A stretch of 39,250 bases of DNA, taken from NCBI GenBank assembly GCA_045614485.1, contig JAZLCY010000005.1, positions 1-39,250 of the forward strand, written 5' to 3'. The notes beneath the pieces are model-generated. The model was not told the DNA's origin and made no database searches. It saw only the letters and a list, made by a program, of their open reading frames with translations. This document shows positions 8,766-39,250 of this stretch, one piece after another. Source of the DNA: Eubacteriales bacterium. GTDB lineage: Bacteria > Bacillota > Clostridia > Oscillospirales > CAG-272. Position numbers and translations under genes: made by a program. Every line of letters starts with the position of its first letter. Position 1 is the stretch's first letter.

Positions 8766-9653
8766 TTACTCAACGTTCTGAACCTGCTCGCGTATCTTTT
8801 CAAGCTCGCCCTTCATATCAACTACGATACGGGCAATGCTTGCGTTATTACACTTAGAGCCGATTGTATTTGTTTCGCGGTTTAATTCCTGCATTAAGAA
8901 ATCAAGCTTTCTGCCGGAGGGTTCGGGAAGTGCTGAAATCTCGTAAAACGCATCAAAATGAGATCTGAGCCTTACAAGCTCCTCGTCAATAGCGATCTTA
9001 TCCGCCCAAACGGCGCACTCTGTGAGAAGGCGGTTTTCATCAACCGCAACAGAGTTATCACCGAGAATTGCCCTAAGCCTTGCTTCAAGCTTATCGCGAT
9101 ATCCTACAGTATCCTCGTGGGAGATCTTCTCAACCTGTGCGGCATAAGAGCGAACGAGCTCAATCTTTGCCTTGATATCCGACTCCGCTCTTGCACCCTC
9201 TGCACTTCTCATAGCGCAGTAGCCTTCAACCGCCTCAGCAAGAACAGCCTCGAAGATCTGCCACTCAGCTTCAAGATCCTCCTCAGGCTTTTCAAAGGTG
9301 AAGATATCCTTATTCTGTGCAACGCGCATAGTGGATATATCGTCCTTAAGACCGAACTCATCACGAAGCTTATACAGCGCCTCGATGTAGCTCCTTGCAA
9401 GCTCAGCATCAACAGCAACACTGCCGATACCCGAGCTATGATCGTCTACGGTTACGAACACGTCTACCTTACCGCGAGAGATCGCATTGTGCTGAATGTA
9501 GCTCTTGATCCTCTCCTCAAGAAAGGTGTATGCCCTGGGCATTTTTACCGAGCAATCAAAGAAGCGCGAATTAACGCTCTTGATCTCGATAGTGATATCC
9601 TTTTTCTCGCCCTCGTGCTTCGCCCTGCCGAAGGCTGTCATACTCTTTATCAT
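8766..9653 (-). CDS. YicC family stress-induced protein / endoribonuclease
   Basis: 295 aa. MTAFGR N-terminus and the C-terminal DUF1732-type [12 protein letters not shown] motif. Confidence 0.85.
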
Positions 9654-34626: not shown

Positions 34627-34768
34627 GTATGAGCATTAAATCGTGCGCACAAATCACGTTTCGCCCCATTTTGTTGATTATGTGGTGATTTTCGTGTCAT
34701 AAAATTTAAATTAGTATAGTTTTGGGTATTATTTTTGTAAATTTCATATCGTTAAATAACTTTCATTT

Positions 34769-34843
34769 CTCCCTGTAGTTAAATGGATATAACGGGAACC
34801 TCCTAAGTTTCTGTTGTGAGTTCGATTCTCGCCGGGGAGGCCA
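34769..34843 (+). tRNA. tRNA-Arg (anticodon CCT), CCA encoded
   Basis: Folded by hand. Acceptor stem CTCCCTG/CGGGGAG (one G.U pair), D stem GTTA/TAAC, anticodon stem GGAAC/GTTTC, anticodon loop CTCCTAA (U33, CCT, A37). 4-nt variable loop, T stem GTGAG/CTCGC, T loop TTCGATT, discriminator G, then CCA. 75 nt. Confidence 0.9.
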
Positions 34844-34854
34844 ATTTTTTAGCG

Positions 34855-34880
34855 AGGGCGGTCTAATTTGACCGCCTTTT
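34855..34880 (+). terminator. hairpin + T-run directly after the tRNA
   Basis: GGCGGTC taattt GACCGCC (34857-34876) extended by G.U and A-U pairs, followed by TTTT. Confidence 0.6.
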
Positions 34881-34898
34881 GCACTATAAAGGAGTTAT

Positions 34899-35609
34899 AT
34901 GACGGATAAAGAAATACGTGCAAATGAGCTTGCAACTTTTTATATTGAGAAAACAAATCATCAAGATGTTCCTATTCAAATTCACTTTGTCGACAACATT
35001 AACAATTCTTGGATTTTATTTGCGTCTGATGATAATGTAATTAGACAATATCTAAATCATGATTTTTCAGAATGCAATGGGTTAACTATGCCCTACGACG
35101 GACAGACATACCACTTGCTCATACGAAACGATTACGATGACTATGAGTGTACTGTTATCCACGAATGCATGCATGCGTTTGATTATGAATATTTTAGGAT
35201 ATCATTTAACAACGGTGATTTACACATAGAAAATAACAACAGTTACTGGGGCATGGCATTGTACAGCGAATACCATGCCAGATCCATTGCACATGGGTAC
35301 TATATAAGCCAAAAAATTGAAAGCAAAGCAGATTTTGTCAAAAAAGAATTTCCGGCGATAATTGAAGAGGTTTTTGCATTGAAGAGTTCTCTTTTGAATA
35401 ATGAGATCGCATATCAATTTTTTTCGTACGAATTAATGCAGTATTTAGGCAGACTGGGTAGCTATGGTATAGATTATAATGTTATCGATGGATTCCCCAA
35501 AGAACTCCTTGCTTTATATAATTCTTTAATTTTACTCGATTCTGAATGGTCTACCGAAAATTTCTCGTTGCTGTTAAAAGCAATTAACGACTTTGCTTTA
35601 TCTGAATGA
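34899..35609 (+). CDS. hypothetical protein with HExxH zinc-metallopeptidase-like motif
   Basis: 236 aa. AAAGGAG SD 6 nt upstream. TVIHECMHAFDY contains HExxH (HECMH), and SEYHARSIAH about 30 residues later could supply a third ligand. No signal peptide or TM segment. Confidence 0.55.
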   Translation: MTDKEIRANELATFYIEKTNHQDVPIQIHFVDNINNSWILFASDDNVIRQYLNHDFSECNGLTMPYDGQTYHLLIRNDYDDYECTVIHECMHAFDYEYFRISFNNGDLHIENNNSYWGMALYSEYHARSIAHGYYISQKIESKADFVKKEFPAIIEEVFALKSSLLNNEIAYQFFSYELMQYLGRLGSYGIDYNVIDGFPKELLALYNSLILLDSEWSTENFSLLLKAINDFALSE

Positions 35610-35654
35610 TAATTGTATTTTCTGCAAGGTGGGTTTCCCACTTGTAAAACTCTC

Positions 35655-35700
35655 GGAGAGGGGTTAAATTGTCAAAGTGATGGCAATTTAATCTCTCTCC
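35655..35700 (+). other. 20-bp strand-specific RNA hairpin between islet genes 1 and 2
   Basis: GGAGAGGGGTTAAATTGTCA aagtga TGGCAATTTAATCTCTCTCC. All 20 positions pair on the plus strand if three G.U wobbles are allowed. The same positions are A/C mismatches on the minus strand. Confidence 0.55.
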
Positions 35701-35806
35701 TTATCCTGTTCCCTAAAATCATATTTTCATATGGTTCTTTGTTTTATATTTGGCAAAAAGAGATAGTTCTTATCATTTTTAACTTTTAACGTGAAAGGAT
35801 TATAAT

Positions 35807-37582
35807 ATGGCAAGCATTCCAACAAAAAAAGCTCAAGCTTCAAGTGGAACATCATTTGGAGAACAGGCAATTTACTACTACATAAAGCAATTATTCCAAG
35901 ATGCTGTAAATCGTGAAAAATACTCTTTTAATGAAAACGAAAGCATCGAATTAGATATTTATATCCCTTGTTTGCATTTTGCCATTGAATATGATGGTGC
36001 ATATTGGCATAAAGATAAAGCTGACATTGACAATCGCAAAAACGACATTCTTTCTGATGCCGGTGTTTACTTAGTTCGCGTTCGCGAATGCGGATTGGCG
36101 GACCTGGATAATAAACACGGTGATATTATTTACCGAAAAACTTCTTCAAAAGATAATGGACTTCACTTACAAGAAGTCATTAACGAAATCGTAAACATTA
36201 TCAATAATTATGTTAAGGCAAACGATTTACCTATAACGAAAGAAATCAAGGATTCGCTTGTTTCTTTCCATTTGAGCAAAGAAGAATTAATTGATAATCG
36301 CCCTAATATTTATGCCCAGTATCATACAGTTTTTCAAGAAAATAACATCGCACAAACCTGTATGATAAAATACTGGGACTATCAAAAAAATGGTAATCTT
36401 TTGCCACAAAATGTTTCTATTAATTCTCGTATTTTCGTATACCTAACATGCGCTCATGGATTATCGTTTCAAATACGTGTTAGTAATTTGTGCCTTTCCA
36501 ATAATAAAGCTCATATCAATTGCGACAAATGCTTTTTGAATTTTTGCCCTTTTGCCGAAGAAGCGGATTTTTCAATTTGTCACATTGCAAATGAATGTGA
36601 TACTTATAAAAAAGCAATCGAAGAATGTTCATATGTTCCCTCTTGGGTAAAAAACAAACACGCTTTTACCTTATCAAAGTTAAATTTTGTTCCACAAAAT
36701 TTTCCGTGTACAATTGACTTAATTGAAAACACACAAAAACAACATGATGCATATAATACTGAAATGTGGAACGAGATCTTGGCGAAATTGGAAGAAACAA
36801 ATGATATTACAAAATTAGTGATTGCTGAATGGTTGAAAGCGCTTCATCCTTCGGAGCATTTCAAATTAATACATGCAATTTGGCAACGAAATAACCAACA
36901 GTTTATAGATGTTCTTAAAGATATTTTCAACAATACAGATTCTTATTTTTTACGGTATTTTCCAATTCAAGTAACTGATTCTGTTTGTGTATGTGATATC
37001 GTGAAAATGTTTTTTGATTTCAGCCCTAAAAGGTTTAGTTATAAGCTCAAATTGTTTGATTTCCAAAATGTTATGAAAGACTTCTGCGAAGCAATTCTTG
37101 CTTTCTACAAAAACGATAGTTCCGAGCAAAAAGATGATATGGTTTTAACTTTTTGCATAACATCTGAAATCCCGACTTTGTCAAAACAGTTTTCTGGTTA
37201 TCTATATAAATTACTATGCGAACTCGAAAAAATAGTATTTTTACCGAACGCAAAAAAATGCAAAGAGTTACTTTACGCTAAAGCTGAAACTGAATTATCC
37301 ACCTTGGATAATTTTGAAAAGGAAGAACACTCTGTCTTGGAAGCACCTGTAGCTATTTCAGAAACATTCATTGGGAAGCAGGAGTCAGCACTTATAGCAT
37401 TTGAAGAATCCGAAAAGAAACGCAAACAACTCGAGAATGGGGTTGACGAAGAAACTGCCAAGGACAAGCTTAGACGCCGTTCACAAGGCTTGTGTCAGCA
37501 TTGCGGTAACAAATTTAAAAAGAAATTCTTACTGTTTGGAGAACAAATTTGCACAAAGTGTGGAAGAAAAAAGGATTATTAA
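35807..37582 (+). CDS. large multidomain protein: N-terminal PD-(D/E)xK / Vsr-DUF559-like nuclease motif, treble-clef-like Zn element, unknown domain, C-terminal CxxC...CxxC zinc ribbon
   Basis: 591 aa. AAAGGA SD. FGEQAIYYYIKQLF...ELDIYIP..HFAIEYDGAYWH...LVRVRE matches the restriction-endonuclease-like E..D...(I/V)E.DG..(W)H pattern. YWDYQKNGNLLPQNVSINSRIFVYLTCAHG...NCDKC resembles DUF4379-type zinc ribbons. The C-terminus is CQHCGNKFKKKFLLFGEQICTKCG. Confidence 0.6.
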   Translation: MASIPTKKAQASSGTSFGEQAIYYYIKQLFQDAVNREKYSFNENESIELDIYIPCLHFAIEYDGAYWHKDKADIDNRKNDILSDAGVYLVRVRECGLADLDNKHGDIIYRKTSSKDNGLHLQEVINEIVNIINNYVKANDLPITKEIKDSLVSFHLSKEELIDNRPNIYAQYHTVFQENNIAQTCMIKYWDYQKNGNLLPQNVSINSRIFVYLTCAHGLSFQIRVSNLCLSNNKAHINCDKCFLNFCPFAEEADFSICHIANECDTYKKAIEECSYVPSWVKNKHAFTLSKLNFVPQNFPCTIDLIENTQKQHDAYNTEMWNEILAKLEETNDITKLVIAEWLKALHPSEHFKLIHAIWQRNNQQFIDVLKDIFNNTDSYFLRYFPIQVTDSVCVCDIVKMFFDFSPKRFSYKLKLFDFQNVMKDFCEAILAFYKNDSSEQKDDMVLTFCITSEIPTLSKQFSGYLYKLLCELEKIVFLPNAKKCKELLYAKAETELSTLDNFEKEEHSVLEAPVAISETFIGKQESALIAFEESEKKRKQLENGVDEETAKDKLRRRSQGLCQHCGNKFKKKFLLFGEQICTKCGRKKDY

Positions 37583-37701
37583 AGCACCGTGCTAAAAGTT
37601 TAATAAAGTTATCGCAACTGCATTACAAATCTTTTTTAGGTCTTTACTTTTAAAAAAAGTAGCAATATTGATTTAGAGCGTTTTTCCAAAAGGAGTACTA
37701 T

Positions 37702-37980
37702 ATGGCTGAAACAATATTGACATTTGATCACGCTTGTGATAAAATTATTAAAACAAATTTTAGGAAGGATGGAACATACGTGATGAGTTGGTTATCAGGA
37801 GCAGGCGGACTTATTCTTATTCTCCTTATTGCTATCGCTGCAATTATCGGCGCGCTTATCGGTCTTGCAATCATTGCGGCAATCGCTGTTGCAATTATCG
37901 TAATCGTTAAGAAAAAGAAGAAGACAGCTGAAATAGAAGAGGCTGTTACCGAAGTTGTTGAAGAAACAACTGCTGTATAA
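37702..37980 (+). CDS. small membrane protein (92 aa), function unknown
   Basis: AAAGGAG SD 7 nt upstream. An uninterrupted 35-residue hydrophobic stretch GGLILILLIAIAAIIGALIGLAIIAAIAVAIIVIV is followed by KKKKK and an acidic tail. A terminator follows. Confidence 0.6.
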   Translation: MAETILTFDHACDKIIKTNFRKDGTYVMSWLSGAGGLILILLIAIAAIIGALIGLAIIAAIAVAIIVIVKKKKKTAEIEEAVTEVVEETTAV

Positions 37981-38038
37981 TTTCGTATAGCATAATAAGC
38001 CGGCAGAAAACGGTAAAACGGCAAATTTAAATAAAAAA

Positions 38039-38075
38039 CAGGATTTTCTTGCAATATAGGAAATCCTGTTTTTTA
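38039..38075 (+). terminator. intrinsic terminator closing the islet
   Basis: 11-bp stem CAGGATTTTCT / AGGAAATCCTG (38039-38049 / 38058-38068) followed by TTTTTT. Confidence 0.8.
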
Positions 38076-38191
38076 TTGTTTTGAACACAATAAGAGGAAT
38101 TTTGCGGTGCTGTTTTTAGTGTTTTTTGATGAGCAAATGTTAATAAATTGTAAATATTTATGTTGGTTGGTATATTTTTATTAAAAATATA

Positions 38192-38220
38192 TAGAAAAAG
38201 ATGCAAAAATGTGTTATAAT
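38192..38220 (+). promoter_or_regulatory. candidate ppdK promoter
   Basis: Extended -10 TGtTATAAT (38212-38220) with -35 TAGAAA (38192-38197) at 17-nt spacing. Confidence 0.5.
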
Positions 38221-38326
38221 TCCTGTTGCGGCTTACGCACGGGTGTATATTTTATATAAAAAACGCGTGAGCGGCCACATAAAATTGCTATAAAAAAATA
38301 AATTTTATATTTTGGAGGAAAACAAA

Positions 38327-39250
38327 ATGAGCAAGAAGTATTGTTATCTCTTCTCCGAGGGTAACGCAAGCATGCGTGAGATCCTTGGCGGTAAGGGAGC
38401 TAACCTCGCTGAGATGACCAACATTGGTCTTCCCGTTCCCCAGGGCTTCACTATTTCTACCGAAGCCTGCACACAGTACTATGAAGACGGCCGTCAGATC
38501 AATGCTGACATCATGGCTGAAATCATGGAGTACATTGTAAAGATGGAGGGTGTTACCGGCAAGAAGTTCGGTGACCTTGAAAATCCCCTTCTCGTTTCCG
38601 TTCGTTCCGGTGCTCGTGCATCCATGCCCGGTATGATGGATACCATCCTTAACCTTGGTCTTAACGAGGACGTTGTTGAGGTTATGGCTAAGAAGTCCGG
38701 CAATCCCCGTTGGGCTTATGACTGCTACAGAAGATTTATCCAGATGTATTCCGACGTTGTTATGGAAGTTGGTAAGAAGTACTTTGAGGAGCTTATCGAC
38801 AAGATGAAGGAAGAAAAGGGCGTTAAGCTTGACGTTGAGCTTACCGCTGATGACCTTAAGGAGCTTGCAAATCAGTTCAAGGCTGAGTACAAGGCTAAGA
38901 TCGGTCAGGACTTCCCCTCTGATCCTAAGGAACAGCTTATCGGCGCAGTTAAGGCAGTATTCCGTTCTTGGGACAACCCCAGAGCAAACGTTTACCGCCG
39001 CGATAACGACATTCCCTACTCTTGGGGTACTGCAGTAAACGTACAGGCAATGGCATTCGGTAACATGGGTGACAATTGCGGTACCGGTGTTGCATTTACC
39101 CGTGACCCTGCTACCGGTGAGAAGAAGCTCATGGGTGAGTTCCTTACCAACGCACAGGGTGAGGACGTTGTTGCAGGTGTTCGTACTCCCATGCCCATCG
39201 CAGAGATGGCTAACAAGTTCCCCGCAGCTTACGAGCAGTTCGTAGAGGTT
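38327..39250 (+). CDS. ppdK: pyruvate, phosphate dikinase, N-terminal 308 codons (runs off the right edge)
   Basis: Absent from the ORF track (no stop in the window). Translation from the ATG at 38327, behind GGAGGAAAA, gives [52 protein letters not shown]...[37 protein letters not shown], the canonical PPDK N-terminal ATP-grasp region. Confidence 0.9.

What the first reader, a model, noticed from the sequence alone, without database searches (positions are those of the whole stretch)
35807..37582. 591-aa protein with inverted nuclease/zinc-ribbon architecture and a ~250-aa unassignable domain
Residues ~15-95 carry the E...D...(I)E(Y)DG..WH...VR pattern of Vsr/DUF559-type PD-(D/E)xK nucleases. 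Residues ~185-245 look like a DUF4379-type treble-clef zinc ribbon (W..Q.NG...P..V...S...V.L.C.HG......V...//..C..C). In the proteins I remember, the zinc ribbons are N-terminal and the nuclease is C-terminal; here the order is reversed. Residues ~290-530 have no recognisable motif. An acidic/basic linker follows, and then a terminal CxxC-x15-CxxC ribbon. This reads as nuclease effector plus Zn-finger nucleic-acid readers plus a novel putative sensor domain, the layout of many single-protein defence effectors.
Basis: partly seen in the sequence, partly recalled or inferred. Interest (0 to 1): 0.7.

Follow-up and report, generated by a model that had tools for sequence, protein, structure and literature searches.

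The report
Mobile Vsr-type nuclease beside tRNA gene
The 591-aa protein is a real, intact DNA-cutting enzyme related to homing endonucleases and fused to a very rare helical domain of unknown function; its gene moves as a discrete cassette inside a small foreign islet next to a tRNA gene, which makes it an interesting variant of a known kind, not a new class of system.

Summary
Residues ~11-140 form a Vsr/EDxHD-type PD-(D/E)xK nuclease: a family profile hits the I-Bth0305I homing-endonuclease catalytic domain (PDB 3r3p, E=4e-4), and all five active-site equivalents (E19, D50, D63, H68, D75) are invariant. Residues 187-242 are a DUF4379 zinc ribbon. Residues 283-501 are a confident all-helical module with no sequence or fold match, found in only 12 clusters among 1.84 billion, and duplicated or swapped in relatives. 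A CxxC-x15-CxxC ribbon ends the protein. The "inverted order" is not special, because relatives carry ribbons on both sides of the nuclease. The gene lies in a low-GC islet between tRNA-Arg(CCT) and ppdK. That islet is 91-97% identical to one in an unrelated genomic context and brings its own tRNA. An otherwise identical islet (L175) lacks exactly the nuclease module, with a clean junction. A same-species strain (L174) carries a different nuclease of the superfamily at the same tRNA. Across the superfamily, 29 of 83 loci lie within 3 kb of a tRNA gene, against about 3% background. Best reading: a free-standing, homing-endonuclease-like mobile nuclease (0.45). Main rival: a stand-alone defence nuclease (0.33). 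No PADLOC match. It is a new variant of a known kind.

The parts
34659..37626 (+). Horizontally transferred low-GC cassette shared with L012. It comprises 110 bp of upstream DNA, tRNA-Arg, the HExxH gene, the nuclease head and the nuclease tail. The helical-domain segment 36459-37403 is not shared.
   Evidence: blastn against L012: 97% over 34659-35751, 91% over 35742-36459, 94% over 37403-37626, with unrelated flanks. GC is 0.32-0.35 here against 0.45-0.50 elsewhere.
34769..34843 (+). tRNA-Arg(CCT), the allele carried by the cassette.
   Evidence: ARAGORN and Rfam tRNA at 54.8 bits. It is 100% identical to L012's tRNA but only 64% identical to the syntenic tRNA of the closest flank relative, L092.
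34899..35609 (+). 236-aa HExxH protein (HECMH motif), a co-resident of the islet and not an obligatory partner.
   Evidence: Weak Peptidase_M90 hit. It is 95% identical to the L012 copy. The family has only 13 clusters. It is found with the nuclease (window, L012), with a different nuclease (L174), or without one (L175).
35742..37593 (+). The nuclease gene module: about 65 bp of upstream DNA with the ribosome-binding site, the ORF, and 11 bp after the stop codon. It is the unit that is present or absent between alleles.
   Evidence: The empty allele L175 joins '...ACTTGATTTTA|AAAGTTAAATAAAGTTATCGC...'. The filled alleles L001, L007 and L012 have the module between the same two flanks. The same breakpoints recur in the comparisons.
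35807..37582 (+). The 591-aa ORF (the finding).
35837..36226 (+). Residues 11-140: Vsr/EDxHD-type PD-(D/E)xK nuclease domain, with active-site equivalents E19, D50, D63, H68 and D75.
   Evidence: Profile hit to PDB 3r3p at E=4.2e-4. Pfam MTES_1575, DUF559 and DUF2726 across the family. PHROG homing-endonuclease families. The AF2 model shows an alpha-beta-beta-beta-alpha-beta core at pLDDT 80-97. Motif mapping comes from PMC3239194. Omega is 0.11-0.15.
36227..36358 (+). Residues 141-184: helical linker with the invariant RPNIYAQY motif.
   Evidence: Invariant columns R165, P166, I168-Y172. pLDDT is 76-93.
36359..36556 (+). Residues 185-250: DUF4379 treble-clef zinc ribbon (W190-D-Y-x-K-N-G motif; C215, H217, C239, C242).
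   Evidence: Pfam PF14311, 25.3 bits against a gathering score of 24.5. Invariant W190, D191, K194, N195, G196, P200, C215, G218 and C242.
36557..36652 (+). Residues 251-282: cysteine-containing connector (C258, H259, C264), modelled with low confidence.
   Evidence: Invariant C258 and C264. pLDDT is below 50.
36653..37309 (+). Residues 283-501: orphan all-helical module with the RF.Y..LK.FD motif. This is the variable, swapped or duplicated part of the protein.
   Evidence: Domain model with pLDDT 86.5 and pTM 0.79. No fold match in the PDB or BFVD. No family or PDB sequence match. Only 12 proteins found among 1.84e9 representatives. Duplicated in the ~775-aa homologues.
37310..37471 (+). Residues 502-555: acidic/basic, partly helical linker.
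   Evidence: 14 D/E and 8 K/R out of 54 residues. Helix 520-543 in the model.
37472..37579 (+). Residues 556-591: C-terminal CxxC-x15-CxxC zinc ribbon, conserved even in very divergent members.
   Evidence: Conserved in P0001-P0007, L018 and L026 at E 1e-16 to 1e-30 for this piece alone.
37594..37626 (+). Remnant of the islet backbone downstream of the module. It is also present in the empty allele.
37627..38296 (+). Window-specific filler that replaces the terminator hairpin, the ~270-aa gene and the tRNA 3' repeat found in L007, L012 and L175. It holds a small TM ORF (37702 or 37783 to 37980) and a hairpin at 38030-38077.
38327..39250 (+). Host right flank: the start of pyruvate phosphate dikinase, which runs off the window.
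   Evidence: Translation. It is 83% identical to the L007 flank.

Best explanation
The gene encodes an intact, metal-dependent DNA endonuclease of the Vsr/EDxHD branch of the PD-(D/E)xK superfamily. Its catalytic set is E19, D50, D63, H68 and D75. Zinc ribbons hold it on DNA: one DUF4379 ribbon directly after the nuclease and one CxxC-x15-CxxC ribbon at the C-terminus. Between them sits an orphan helical module that is the exchangeable part of the protein. I think the gene is most likely a free-standing, homing-endonuclease-like selfish nuclease gene. It would cut alleles of its intergenic site that lack it, and be copied in by recombinational repair. It rides in a small islet without an integrase, attached to the tRNA-Arg(CCT) gene, and this islet is exchanged among gut Clostridia. 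Shown here: the fold and family of the head, the conserved active site, purifying selection, the gene-sized presence/absence with a clean junction, the recent horizontal transfer, and the tRNA linkage. Inferred only: that it cleaves the empty site, that this cleavage drives its spread, and that the helical module contributes to target choice or regulation. The molecular identity (a site-directed DNA endonuclease on a mobile cassette) has about 0.85 confidence. The homing role has about 0.45.
For: Head domain: profile hit to the I-Bth0305I catalytic domain 3r3p at E=4.2e-4. 3r3p also appears in the Foldseek list with prob 0.93, next to the Vsr-like cleavage domains of AbaSI and PvuRts1I. PHROG families annotated as homing or HNH endonucleases hit at E 5e-11 to 1e-13. 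Phage relatives are annotated 'homing endonuclease' or 'DUF4379 containing protein'. All five EDxHD equivalents are invariant. PMC12350094 classes CapR/DUF4379 plus Vsr-like proteins as a large unrecognised outgroup of homing endonuclease genes. Mobility: L175 carries the same islet (88-94% identical) but lacks exactly the nuclease module, with only 1-2 nt of junction homology. L174 is the same species as L001 (flanks 99.2% and 98.3% identical), yet it has a different DUF4379/Vsr nuclease at the same tRNA. The nuclease head is 88-91% identical in DNA between genomes whose flank genes are 69% identical or less. L057 and L060 show a 96.6% identical segment containing the tRNA and the nuclease against 70% flanks. 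dS is mosaic along the gene, 0.27 in the head against 0.02-0.05 elsewhere. tRNA linkage: 8 of 9 close loci and 21 of 74 distant loci have a tRNA within 3 kb, against about 3% background, and the nuclease is the first ORF 3' of the tRNA in 18 of 27. The gene is free-standing, with no intron in the islet. There is no methylase or immunity partner, as expected for a highly specific enzyme.
Against: At 591-1100 aa these proteins are much larger than typical homing endonucleases, and a 220-aa helical module plus a coiled-coil linker has no precedent among them. The close family is absent from 2.9 million viral contigs and is not in introns or inteins. Gene-sized indels, allelic replacement and transfer signals are equally typical of defence genes in hot spots. 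Many loci carry direct repeats of tRNA 3' parts that start at the anticodon loop or T-loop. That is the signature of integrase-type insertion, which could explain the tRNA linkage without any homing. Some islet co-residents look defence-like (PDC-S31/DUF2971, TIR-like). The L175 allele could be a precise deletion and not an uninvaded site. The helical module does not track the identity of the tRNA: three different middles all sit next to tRNA-Arg(CCT).
Confidence: 0.45

Rival explanations
1. It is a stand-alone anti-phage or anti-plasmid defence nuclease. The Vsr-type head is the effector, the ribbons bind nucleic acid, and the rapidly exchanged helical module senses an invader feature or keeps the nuclease off until triggered. 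The layout resembles AbaSI and PvuRts1I, which also have an N-terminal Vsr-like cleavage domain followed by a C-terminal recognition domain.
For: The gene lies in a variable low-GC islet at a tRNA hot spot with alternative gene content within one species. Some co-residents are defence-like: DUF2971 matches PADLOC PDC-S31 at 2e-11, one is TIR-like at 3e-6, one has a weak HEPN hit, one is DUF3800. A distant HExxH homologue ends a ResIII/Eco57I operon. The middle domain is hypervariable, duplicated and swapped while the head and tail stay constant. Some variants have a TM or amphipathic tail. The family is chromosomal and not phage-borne. The top Foldseek hits are AbaSI and PvuRts1I.
Against: No PADLOC model matches. 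No partner gene is conserved. The Foldseek hits are weak (E of 0.02 or more) and cover only the nuclease. The recognition domain is all-helical, not SRA-like. The closest characterised and annotated relatives are homing endonucleases. Most islet neighbours are orphans.
Confidence: 0.33
2. The nuclease is the mobility engine of the whole tRNA islet. It recognises tRNA-gene DNA around the anticodon loop and cuts it. Repair then installs a cassette that carries a replacement tRNA, so islets spread without an integrase.
For: No islet contains an integrase. The window and L012 cassettes carry a complete, divergent tRNA-Arg(CCT) plus 110 bp of upstream DNA. In L012 the resident tRNA is split (positions 1-40 and 32-75) around the 5.2-kb insert. 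L061 and L062 show the same layout for tRNA-Leu. A nuclease of this superfamily is the recurring item at such sites, next to at least 17 isoacceptors.
Against: Direct repeats that start at the anticodon loop or T-loop are the textbook footprint of tyrosine integrases acting in trans, as in accretion of integrase-less (CIME-type) elements. L175 is a complete repeat-bounded islet with no nuclease. The nuclease module has its own separate insertion junction inside the islet. 54 of 83 loci show no tRNA within 3 kb.
Confidence: 0.1
3. It is a housekeeping Vsr-like repair or processing nuclease, or a decaying remnant with no activity.
For: The fold is homologous to the Vsr mismatch endonuclease.
Against: The distribution is sporadic and strain-variable, the islet has foreign GC content, and transfer is evident. 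A remnant is contradicted by the invariant active site and omega of 0.11-0.21.
Confidence: 0.05

Closest known systems
I-Bth0305I and the EDxHD/Vsr family of homing endonucleases (PDB 3r3p; PMC3239194, PMC2677866)
   Same: The catalytic domain is homologous (profile E=4.2e-4). The composite active site is conserved: E19, D50, D63, H68 and D75 correspond to E170, D196, N208, H213 and D222. Modular DNA-binding add-ons are attached. The gene is mobile and gene-sized.
   Different: I-Bth0305I is 266 aa and intron-encoded in a phage recA gene, with N-terminal NUMOD/HTH modules and a C-terminal nuclease. The window protein is free-standing and chromosomal, with an N-terminal nuclease, zinc ribbons and a 220-aa orphan helical module. 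Its activity is untested.
CapR/DUF4379/DUF723-array plus C-terminal Vsr-like homing endonuclease genes in phage group I/II introns (the 'large unrecognized outgroup', PMC12350094)
   Same: The same two building blocks are used: a treble-clef ribbon of about 60 aa and a Vsr-like nuclease. The distant relatives found here (P0014-P0033 and the L174 543-aa protein) have this multi-ribbon layout.
   Different: The window subfamily keeps only one ribbon, placed after the nuclease. It adds the helical module, a charged linker and a terminal ribbon. It is not in an intron and not in phages.
AbaSI and PvuRts1I modification-dependent restriction enzymes (PDB 4par, 4oq2)
   Same: An N-terminal Vsr-like cleavage domain is followed by a C-terminal recognition domain, in a single polypeptide with no methylase.
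   Different: The fold match is weak (E of 0.02 or more). Their recognition domain is an SRA-like beta structure, while this one is all-helical and orphan. They have no zinc ribbons.
Free-standing phage homing endonuclease genes in tRNA gene regions, for example T4 SegB (PMC13096335, PMC2988022)
   Same: A free-standing nuclease gene sits beside tRNA genes and shows presence/absence between related genomes.
   Different: SegB is a GIY-YIG enzyme in a phage tRNA cluster. Here the enzyme is Vsr-type and lies in bacterial chromosomes, inside islets bounded by tRNA repeats.
Integrase-less cis-mobilisable islets accreted at tRNA genes (CIME-type elements; from my own knowledge, not checked in the library)
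   Same: Small islets are bounded by direct repeats of the tRNA 3' part, stacked in tandem (L019, L053), and contain no recombinase.
   Different: This describes the carrier islet, not the protein. In the window and L012 the cassette brings a whole tRNA gene, not just a 3' segment.

Membership tests
Vsr/EDxHD-type PD-(D/E)xK nuclease domain | Significant profile similarity to a solved member | tested here: met
   The 24-sequence domain profile hits 3r3p at E=4.2e-4. 21 of 24 members hit Pfam MTES_1575 and 10 of 24 hit DUF559. The window protein alone is below threshold.
Vsr/EDxHD-type PD-(D/E)xK nuclease domain | Composite active-site motif E-D-x-H-D | tested here: met
   E19, D50, D63, H68 and D75 align to I-Bth0305I E170, D196, N208, H213 and D222. 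All are invariant in 14 family members.
Vsr/EDxHD-type PD-(D/E)xK nuclease domain | Alpha-beta-beta-beta-alpha-beta core fold | tested here: met
   The AF2 model has H17-29, E34-42, E45-53, E58-63, H72-84 and E88-94 at pLDDT 80-97. Foldseek matches to Vsr-like domains are only weak.
Vsr/EDxHD-type PD-(D/E)xK nuclease domain | Mg2+-dependent DNA cleavage | not testable with these tools
   This needs biochemistry.
DUF4379 (PF14311) treble-clef ribbon | Score above the Pfam gathering threshold, with the WDYxKN and Cys/His pattern | tested here: met
   25.3 bits against 24.5 at residues 187-242. The invariant residues are listed.
Homing endonuclease gene (functional class) | Gene-sized presence/absence at a defined site between otherwise homologous alleles | tested here: met
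   L175 is empty while L012, L007 and L001 are filled, with a clean junction.
Homing endonuclease gene (functional class) | Located in a self-splicing intron or intein, or free-standing in an intergenic region | tested here: met
   The gene is free-standing, and Rfam finds no intron in the islet.
Homing endonuclease gene (functional class) | The enzyme cleaves the allele that lacks the gene and is inherited preferentially | not testable with these tools
   This is inference only.
CapR/DUF4379-array plus C-terminal Vsr outgroup of homing endonuclease genes (PMC12350094) | Three to five N-terminal ribbon domains followed by a C-terminal nuclease | tested here: not met
   The window protein has one ribbon, placed after an N-terminal nuclease. 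Distant relatives and the L174 543-aa protein do fit this layout.
Known or candidate defence systems (PADLOC-DB 2.0) | Match to any defence protein model | tested here: not met
   Zero families for the nuclease and for the HExxH neighbour.
PvuRts1I/AbaSI-type restriction enzymes | SRA-like C-terminal DNA-recognition domain | tested here: not met
   The C-terminal module is all-helical and matches no PDB fold.
tRNA-targeted integrative islet | Direct repeat of the tRNA 3' part at the distal end | tested here: inconclusive
   A 44-45-nt repeat of tRNA positions 32-75 is present in L012, L175 and L007, and repeats occur in 8 or more other loci. The window itself has none, because its right end was replaced.
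tRNA-targeted integrative islet | Integrase or recombinase encoded in the element | tested here: not met
   No such gene appears in any islet examined.

The most novel reading that the evidence does not exclude
Chromosomal DUF4379/Vsr-type nucleases form a family of homing-type enzymes that target tRNA-gene DNA. They would mobilise small integrase-less cassettes, some of which carry a complete replacement tRNA, into or next to tRNA genes in gut Clostridia. The orphan helical module would be a new, exchangeable specificity or regulatory domain.
Probability: 0.12. Interest if true: 0.8.

Novelty: new variant of a known kind. Interest (0 to 1): 0.5.

Why it matters
The result places a large, unannotated set of 'zinc-ribbon domain-containing' bacterial proteins beside the EDxHD/Vsr homing endonucleases. 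It also shows a derived subfamily in which a constant nuclease/ribbon head and ribbon tail bracket a freely exchanged helical module of unknown fold family. If the enzyme is site-specific, the modular design could be a source of new programmable or long-site nucleases. The strong, previously unreported linkage of this superfamily to the 3' side of tRNA genes, including cassettes that bring their own tRNA, gives a concrete and testable case. It bears on how integrase-less islets at tRNA hot spots move and on whether their nucleases are drivers, passengers or defences.

Tried and rejected
- **Inverted architecture as a distinctive feature:** rejected, because relatives have ribbons on both sides of the nuclease and some close members keep N-terminal ribbons.
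- **Conserved operon partner:** rejected. The HExxH gene, the ~270-aa gene and the DUF2971 neighbour occur in all combinations or not at all.
- **Assigning the helical module:** nothing came from Pfam, NCBIfam, PADLOC or PHROGs, from a PDB profile search, from full-length and domain Foldseek against the PDB and BFVD, or from an exhaustive profile search. An HTH-like impression from 'LSPQREQII.LLY' found no support.
- **Full-length PDB profile search:** no hits.
- **Same-species empty site for the whole islet next to the window's own flank genes:** not found. There is no exact copy of the flank protein, and the best metagenome relative is only 67% identical on a 2-kb contig. L098 gave only a distant comparison.
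- **Phage origin:** the close family and the cassette tRNA are absent from viral contigs.
- **att-like repeats in the window itself:** none found.
- **A shared mini-element between tRNAs and their first repeat:** rejected, because the spacers are unrelated.
- **Intron-encoded homing endonuclease gene:** rejected.
- **Literature on CapR ribbons with nucleases:** nothing beyond PMC12350094.
Full report
**Observation**

The ORF at 35807-37582 (+) is real and encodes 591 aa. An AAAGGA ribosome-binding site lies 8 nt upstream of the ATG. Pfam finds DUF4379 at residues 187-242, just above its gathering score at 25.3 against 24.5 bits. For the window protein alone it finds only sub-threshold hits to the Vsr-like families MTES_1575 and DUF2726. 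PADLOC and NCBIfam give nothing. The gene lies in a low-GC patch, 0.32-0.35 against 0.45-0.50 elsewhere.

**Family and architecture**

A search of 5.8 billion clusters gave 34 hits. One is a 96% identical copy (P0001). Twelve are full-length relatives at 38-58% identity. About twenty are distant proteins that match only residues 15-227.

The alignment defines a fixed order of parts:
- a nuclease head with invariant E19, E48, D50, E61, D63, G64, W67, H68, K71, D75, K78, R91, R93 and E94;
- a linker with an invariant RPNIYAQY motif;
- the DUF4379 ribbon;
- a cysteine-containing connector;
- a helical module;
- a charged linker;
- a terminal ribbon.

In the ~775-aa relatives the helical module is present twice. 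In more divergent members (L018, L026) the middle is longer and different, while the head and the terminal ribbon are kept. The tails can be exchanged: a ribbon, a TM helix with a basic tail, a short amphipathic helix, or nothing.

In the distant relatives, DUF4379 copies flank the nuclease on both sides. Several close members still have N-terminal ribbons. The 'inverted order' is therefore a loss of the N-terminal ribbons, not a new arrangement.

**The nuclease head**

A profile of 24 homologous domains hits the catalytic domain of the homing endonuclease I-Bth0305I (PDB 3r3p) at E=4.2e-4. Of the 24 members, 21 hit MTES_1575 and 10 hit DUF559. The I-Bth0305I paper gives the active-site residues E170, D196, N208, H213 and D222, equal to Vsr E25, D51, H64, H69 and D97. 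Through the alignment these map to E19, D50, D63, H68 and D75, all invariant in the family.

The AF2 model shows the expected alpha-beta-beta-beta-alpha-beta core at pLDDT 80-97. Full-length Foldseek hits are weak (E of 0.02 or more), but the top ones are the Vsr-like cleavage domains of AbaSI and PvuRts1I, Bax1, and 3r3p at prob 0.93. PHROGs links residues ~8-175 to families annotated as homing or HNH endonucleases, at E 5e-11 to 1e-13. Phage tblastn hits carry the annotations 'homing endonuclease' or 'DUF4379 containing protein'.

A 2025 paper describes proteins made of CapR/DUF4379/DUF723-like ribbons plus a Vsr-like nuclease as a large unrecognised outgroup of EDxHD homing endonuclease genes. 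The head is under strong purifying selection, with omega 0.11-0.15.

**The helical module**

Modelled alone, with both repeat copies in the alignment, it is a confident all-alpha domain with pLDDT 86.5 and pTM 0.79. It has no meaningful match in the PDB or BFVD; the best hit has E=0.14 and TM of 0.34 or less. No Pfam or PDB sequence signal recurs among its 14 copies. An exhaustive profile search of 1.84 billion representatives finds 12 proteins. All but one belong to this nuclease family. The exception, P0041, joins the module to a SWIM-like finger, NUMOD/HTH-like repeats, a TM segment and LRRs.

**Genomic context**

The islet lies between tRNA-Arg(CCT) at 34769-34843 and ppdK, which starts near 38327. 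It holds a 236-aa HExxH protein, the nuclease and a small TM ORF.

L012, from an Eubacteriales MAG, shares window 34659-36459 and 37403-37626 at 91-97% DNA identity with unrelated flanks. The helical-domain segment between those stretches is replaced. The window's tRNA is 100% identical to L012's but only 64% identical to the syntenic tRNA of its closest flank relative, L092. L092's tRNA instead matches the type seen in L001 and L174. So the cassette brought its own tRNA, which scores 54.8 bits in Rfam.

In L012 the resident tRNA is split, with positions 1-40 and 32-75 flanking a 5.2-kb insert.

L174 is the same species as L001, with flanks 99.2% and 98.3% identical. Its islet differs completely, starting exactly at the tRNA 3' end, and it holds the HExxH gene plus a different 543-aa multi-ribbon Vsr-type nuclease.

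L175 has the same islet as L012 at 88-94% identity: the tRNA, the HExxH gene, the ~270-aa gene, and a 45-nt repeat of tRNA positions 32-75. It lacks exactly the nuclease module, and the junction has no flanking repeats beyond 1-2 nt.

Compared with these loci, the window has lost a 319-bp spacer upstream of the gene. It has also lost everything to the right of 37626: the terminator hairpin, the ~270-aa gene and the tRNA repeat.

**Superfamily-wide pattern**

- Of 9 close loci, 8 have a tRNA gene within 3 kb. Of 74 distant loci, 21 do. The background for positions more than 6 kb away in the same contigs is about 3%.
- The nuclease gene is almost always on the 3' side of the tRNA. It is the first ORF after the tRNA in 18 of 27 cases, next to at least 17 isoacceptors.
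- L057 and L060 are syntenic, with 70% identical flanks but a 96.6% identical segment containing the tRNA and the nuclease gene. L061 and L062 share only a cassette of tRNA, nuclease and one more gene.
- Many loci carry direct copies of tRNA 3' parts that start at the anticodon loop or T-loop, sometimes stacked in tandem. Some carry 5' fragments upstream.
- No islet encodes an integrase.
- Co-resident genes are mostly orphans. A few look defence-like: DUF2971 matches PDC-S31, one is TIR-like, and others are DUF3800 or Bro-N.
- The close family is absent from viral contigs.

**Interpretation**

The molecular identity is well supported: an intact Vsr/EDxHD-type DNA endonuclease with zinc-ribbon DNA-binding modules, carried on a mobile cassette.

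The biological role is less certain. I favour a free-standing, homing-endonuclease-like selfish gene (0.45), for these reasons:
- its characterised and annotated relatives are homing endonucleases;
- it is a discrete gene-sized indel with a clean junction;
- a different nuclease of the same superfamily occupies the same tRNA hot spot in the same species;
- it is far more similar between genomes than its surroundings are.

A stand-alone defence nuclease (0.33) explains the hot-spot behaviour, the hypervariable middle and the defence-like neighbours about as well. It lacks any direct support from a defence model.

A third, more novel reading (about 0.1) is that the nuclease itself targets tRNA-gene DNA and drives the integrase-less islets. 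The integrase-type repeats and the nuclease-free islet L175 argue against it.

A housekeeping role or a decayed remnant is unlikely, given the sporadic distribution and the purifying selection.

**Verdict**

The 'inverted' layout is not remarkable, and the 'defence effector with a sensor domain' reading is one of two live options, not the best supported. I class it as a new variant of a known kind: EDxHD/Vsr nucleases with DUF4379-type ribbons. Its genuinely new elements are the orphan helical module, the constant-head, variable-middle, constant-tail design, and the tRNA-flank cassette biology. Interest: 0.5.

Noticed in passing
L001:12479-13282; L007:2501-3316; L175:8295-9098 (absent from the window): A 267-271-aa gene follows the nuclease site in these islets and is 96-98% identical between loci. 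It has no Pfam or PADLOC hit, and its only match is PHROG phrog_23933 (4e-22). Its motifs FDVLGYKAFF, YSDNYILYF and VRGGITSGE recall a nucleotidyl-cyclase-like palm. That resemblance is from memory and was not tested.
   Followed up: partly
window 34899-35609: The 236-aa HExxH (HECMH) protein belongs to a family of only 13 clusters and has a weak Peptidase_M90 similarity. It occurs with this nuclease, with a different DUF4379/Vsr nuclease (L174), or without one (L175). A 43% identical homologue is the last gene of a ResIII/Eco57I restriction-like operon (L176-L178).
   Followed up: partly
window 34769-34843 and L012:4359-4433: The tRNA-Arg(CCT) carried by the cassette has an unusual C1:G72 acceptor pair. 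It is only about 64-68% identical to the native-type tRNA-Arg(CCT) of related genomes, yet it scores as a good tRNA (54.8 bits).
   Followed up: yes
window 37702-37980 and 38030-38077: A small TM ORF replaces the ~270-aa gene here. The strongest promoter-like site of the region (TTGACA-17-TAAAAT with TG, at 37717-37745) lies inside the ORF, so the real start is probably M28 at 37783. A 20-bp hairpin follows the ORF.
   Followed up: no
window ~35655-35700 (also L001 ~9520-9565): A conserved 17-bp inverted repeat, GGAGAGGGGTTAAATTG...CAATTTAATCTCTCTCC, lies between the HExxH and nuclease genes. Its function is unknown.
   Followed up: no
P0041 (888 aa): This is the only protein with the helical module outside the nuclease family. 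It has a SWIM-like zinc finger, two NUMOD/HTH-like repeats, the helical module, a TM segment and an LRR-like C-terminus.
   Followed up: no
L013:9236-12541; P0040; P0009, P0035 and P0036: Some family members replace the C-terminal ribbon with a TM helix and a basic tail, or with an amphipathic 'KKRNILDFFKSLFK' tail. This hints at membrane association in some variants.
   Followed up: no
L053:8831-14662; L019:5361-8452: Integrase-less islets are stacked in tandem at tRNA genes and bounded by 100% identical tRNA 3'-end repeats. L053 reads tRNA-Lys, then nuclease plus DUF3800, a repeat, Bro-N, and a repeat. L019 reads tRNA-Ala, a repeat, nuclease plus a TM protein, and a repeat.
   Followed up: partly
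L057 and L060: 8756-8958: A tandem duplication of about 89 bp lies upstream of tRNA-Ala and includes the first 22 nt of the tRNA. L061 and L062 have a 40-nt 5' tRNA-Leu fragment 190 bp upstream of the intact gene.
   Followed up: no
window 35807-37582 compared with L007: Synonymous divergence is strongly mosaic within the gene: dS is 0.27 in residues 1-140 and 0.02-0.05 in the rest. This shows a recombination breakpoint between the nuclease head and the remainder of the gene.
   Followed up: yes
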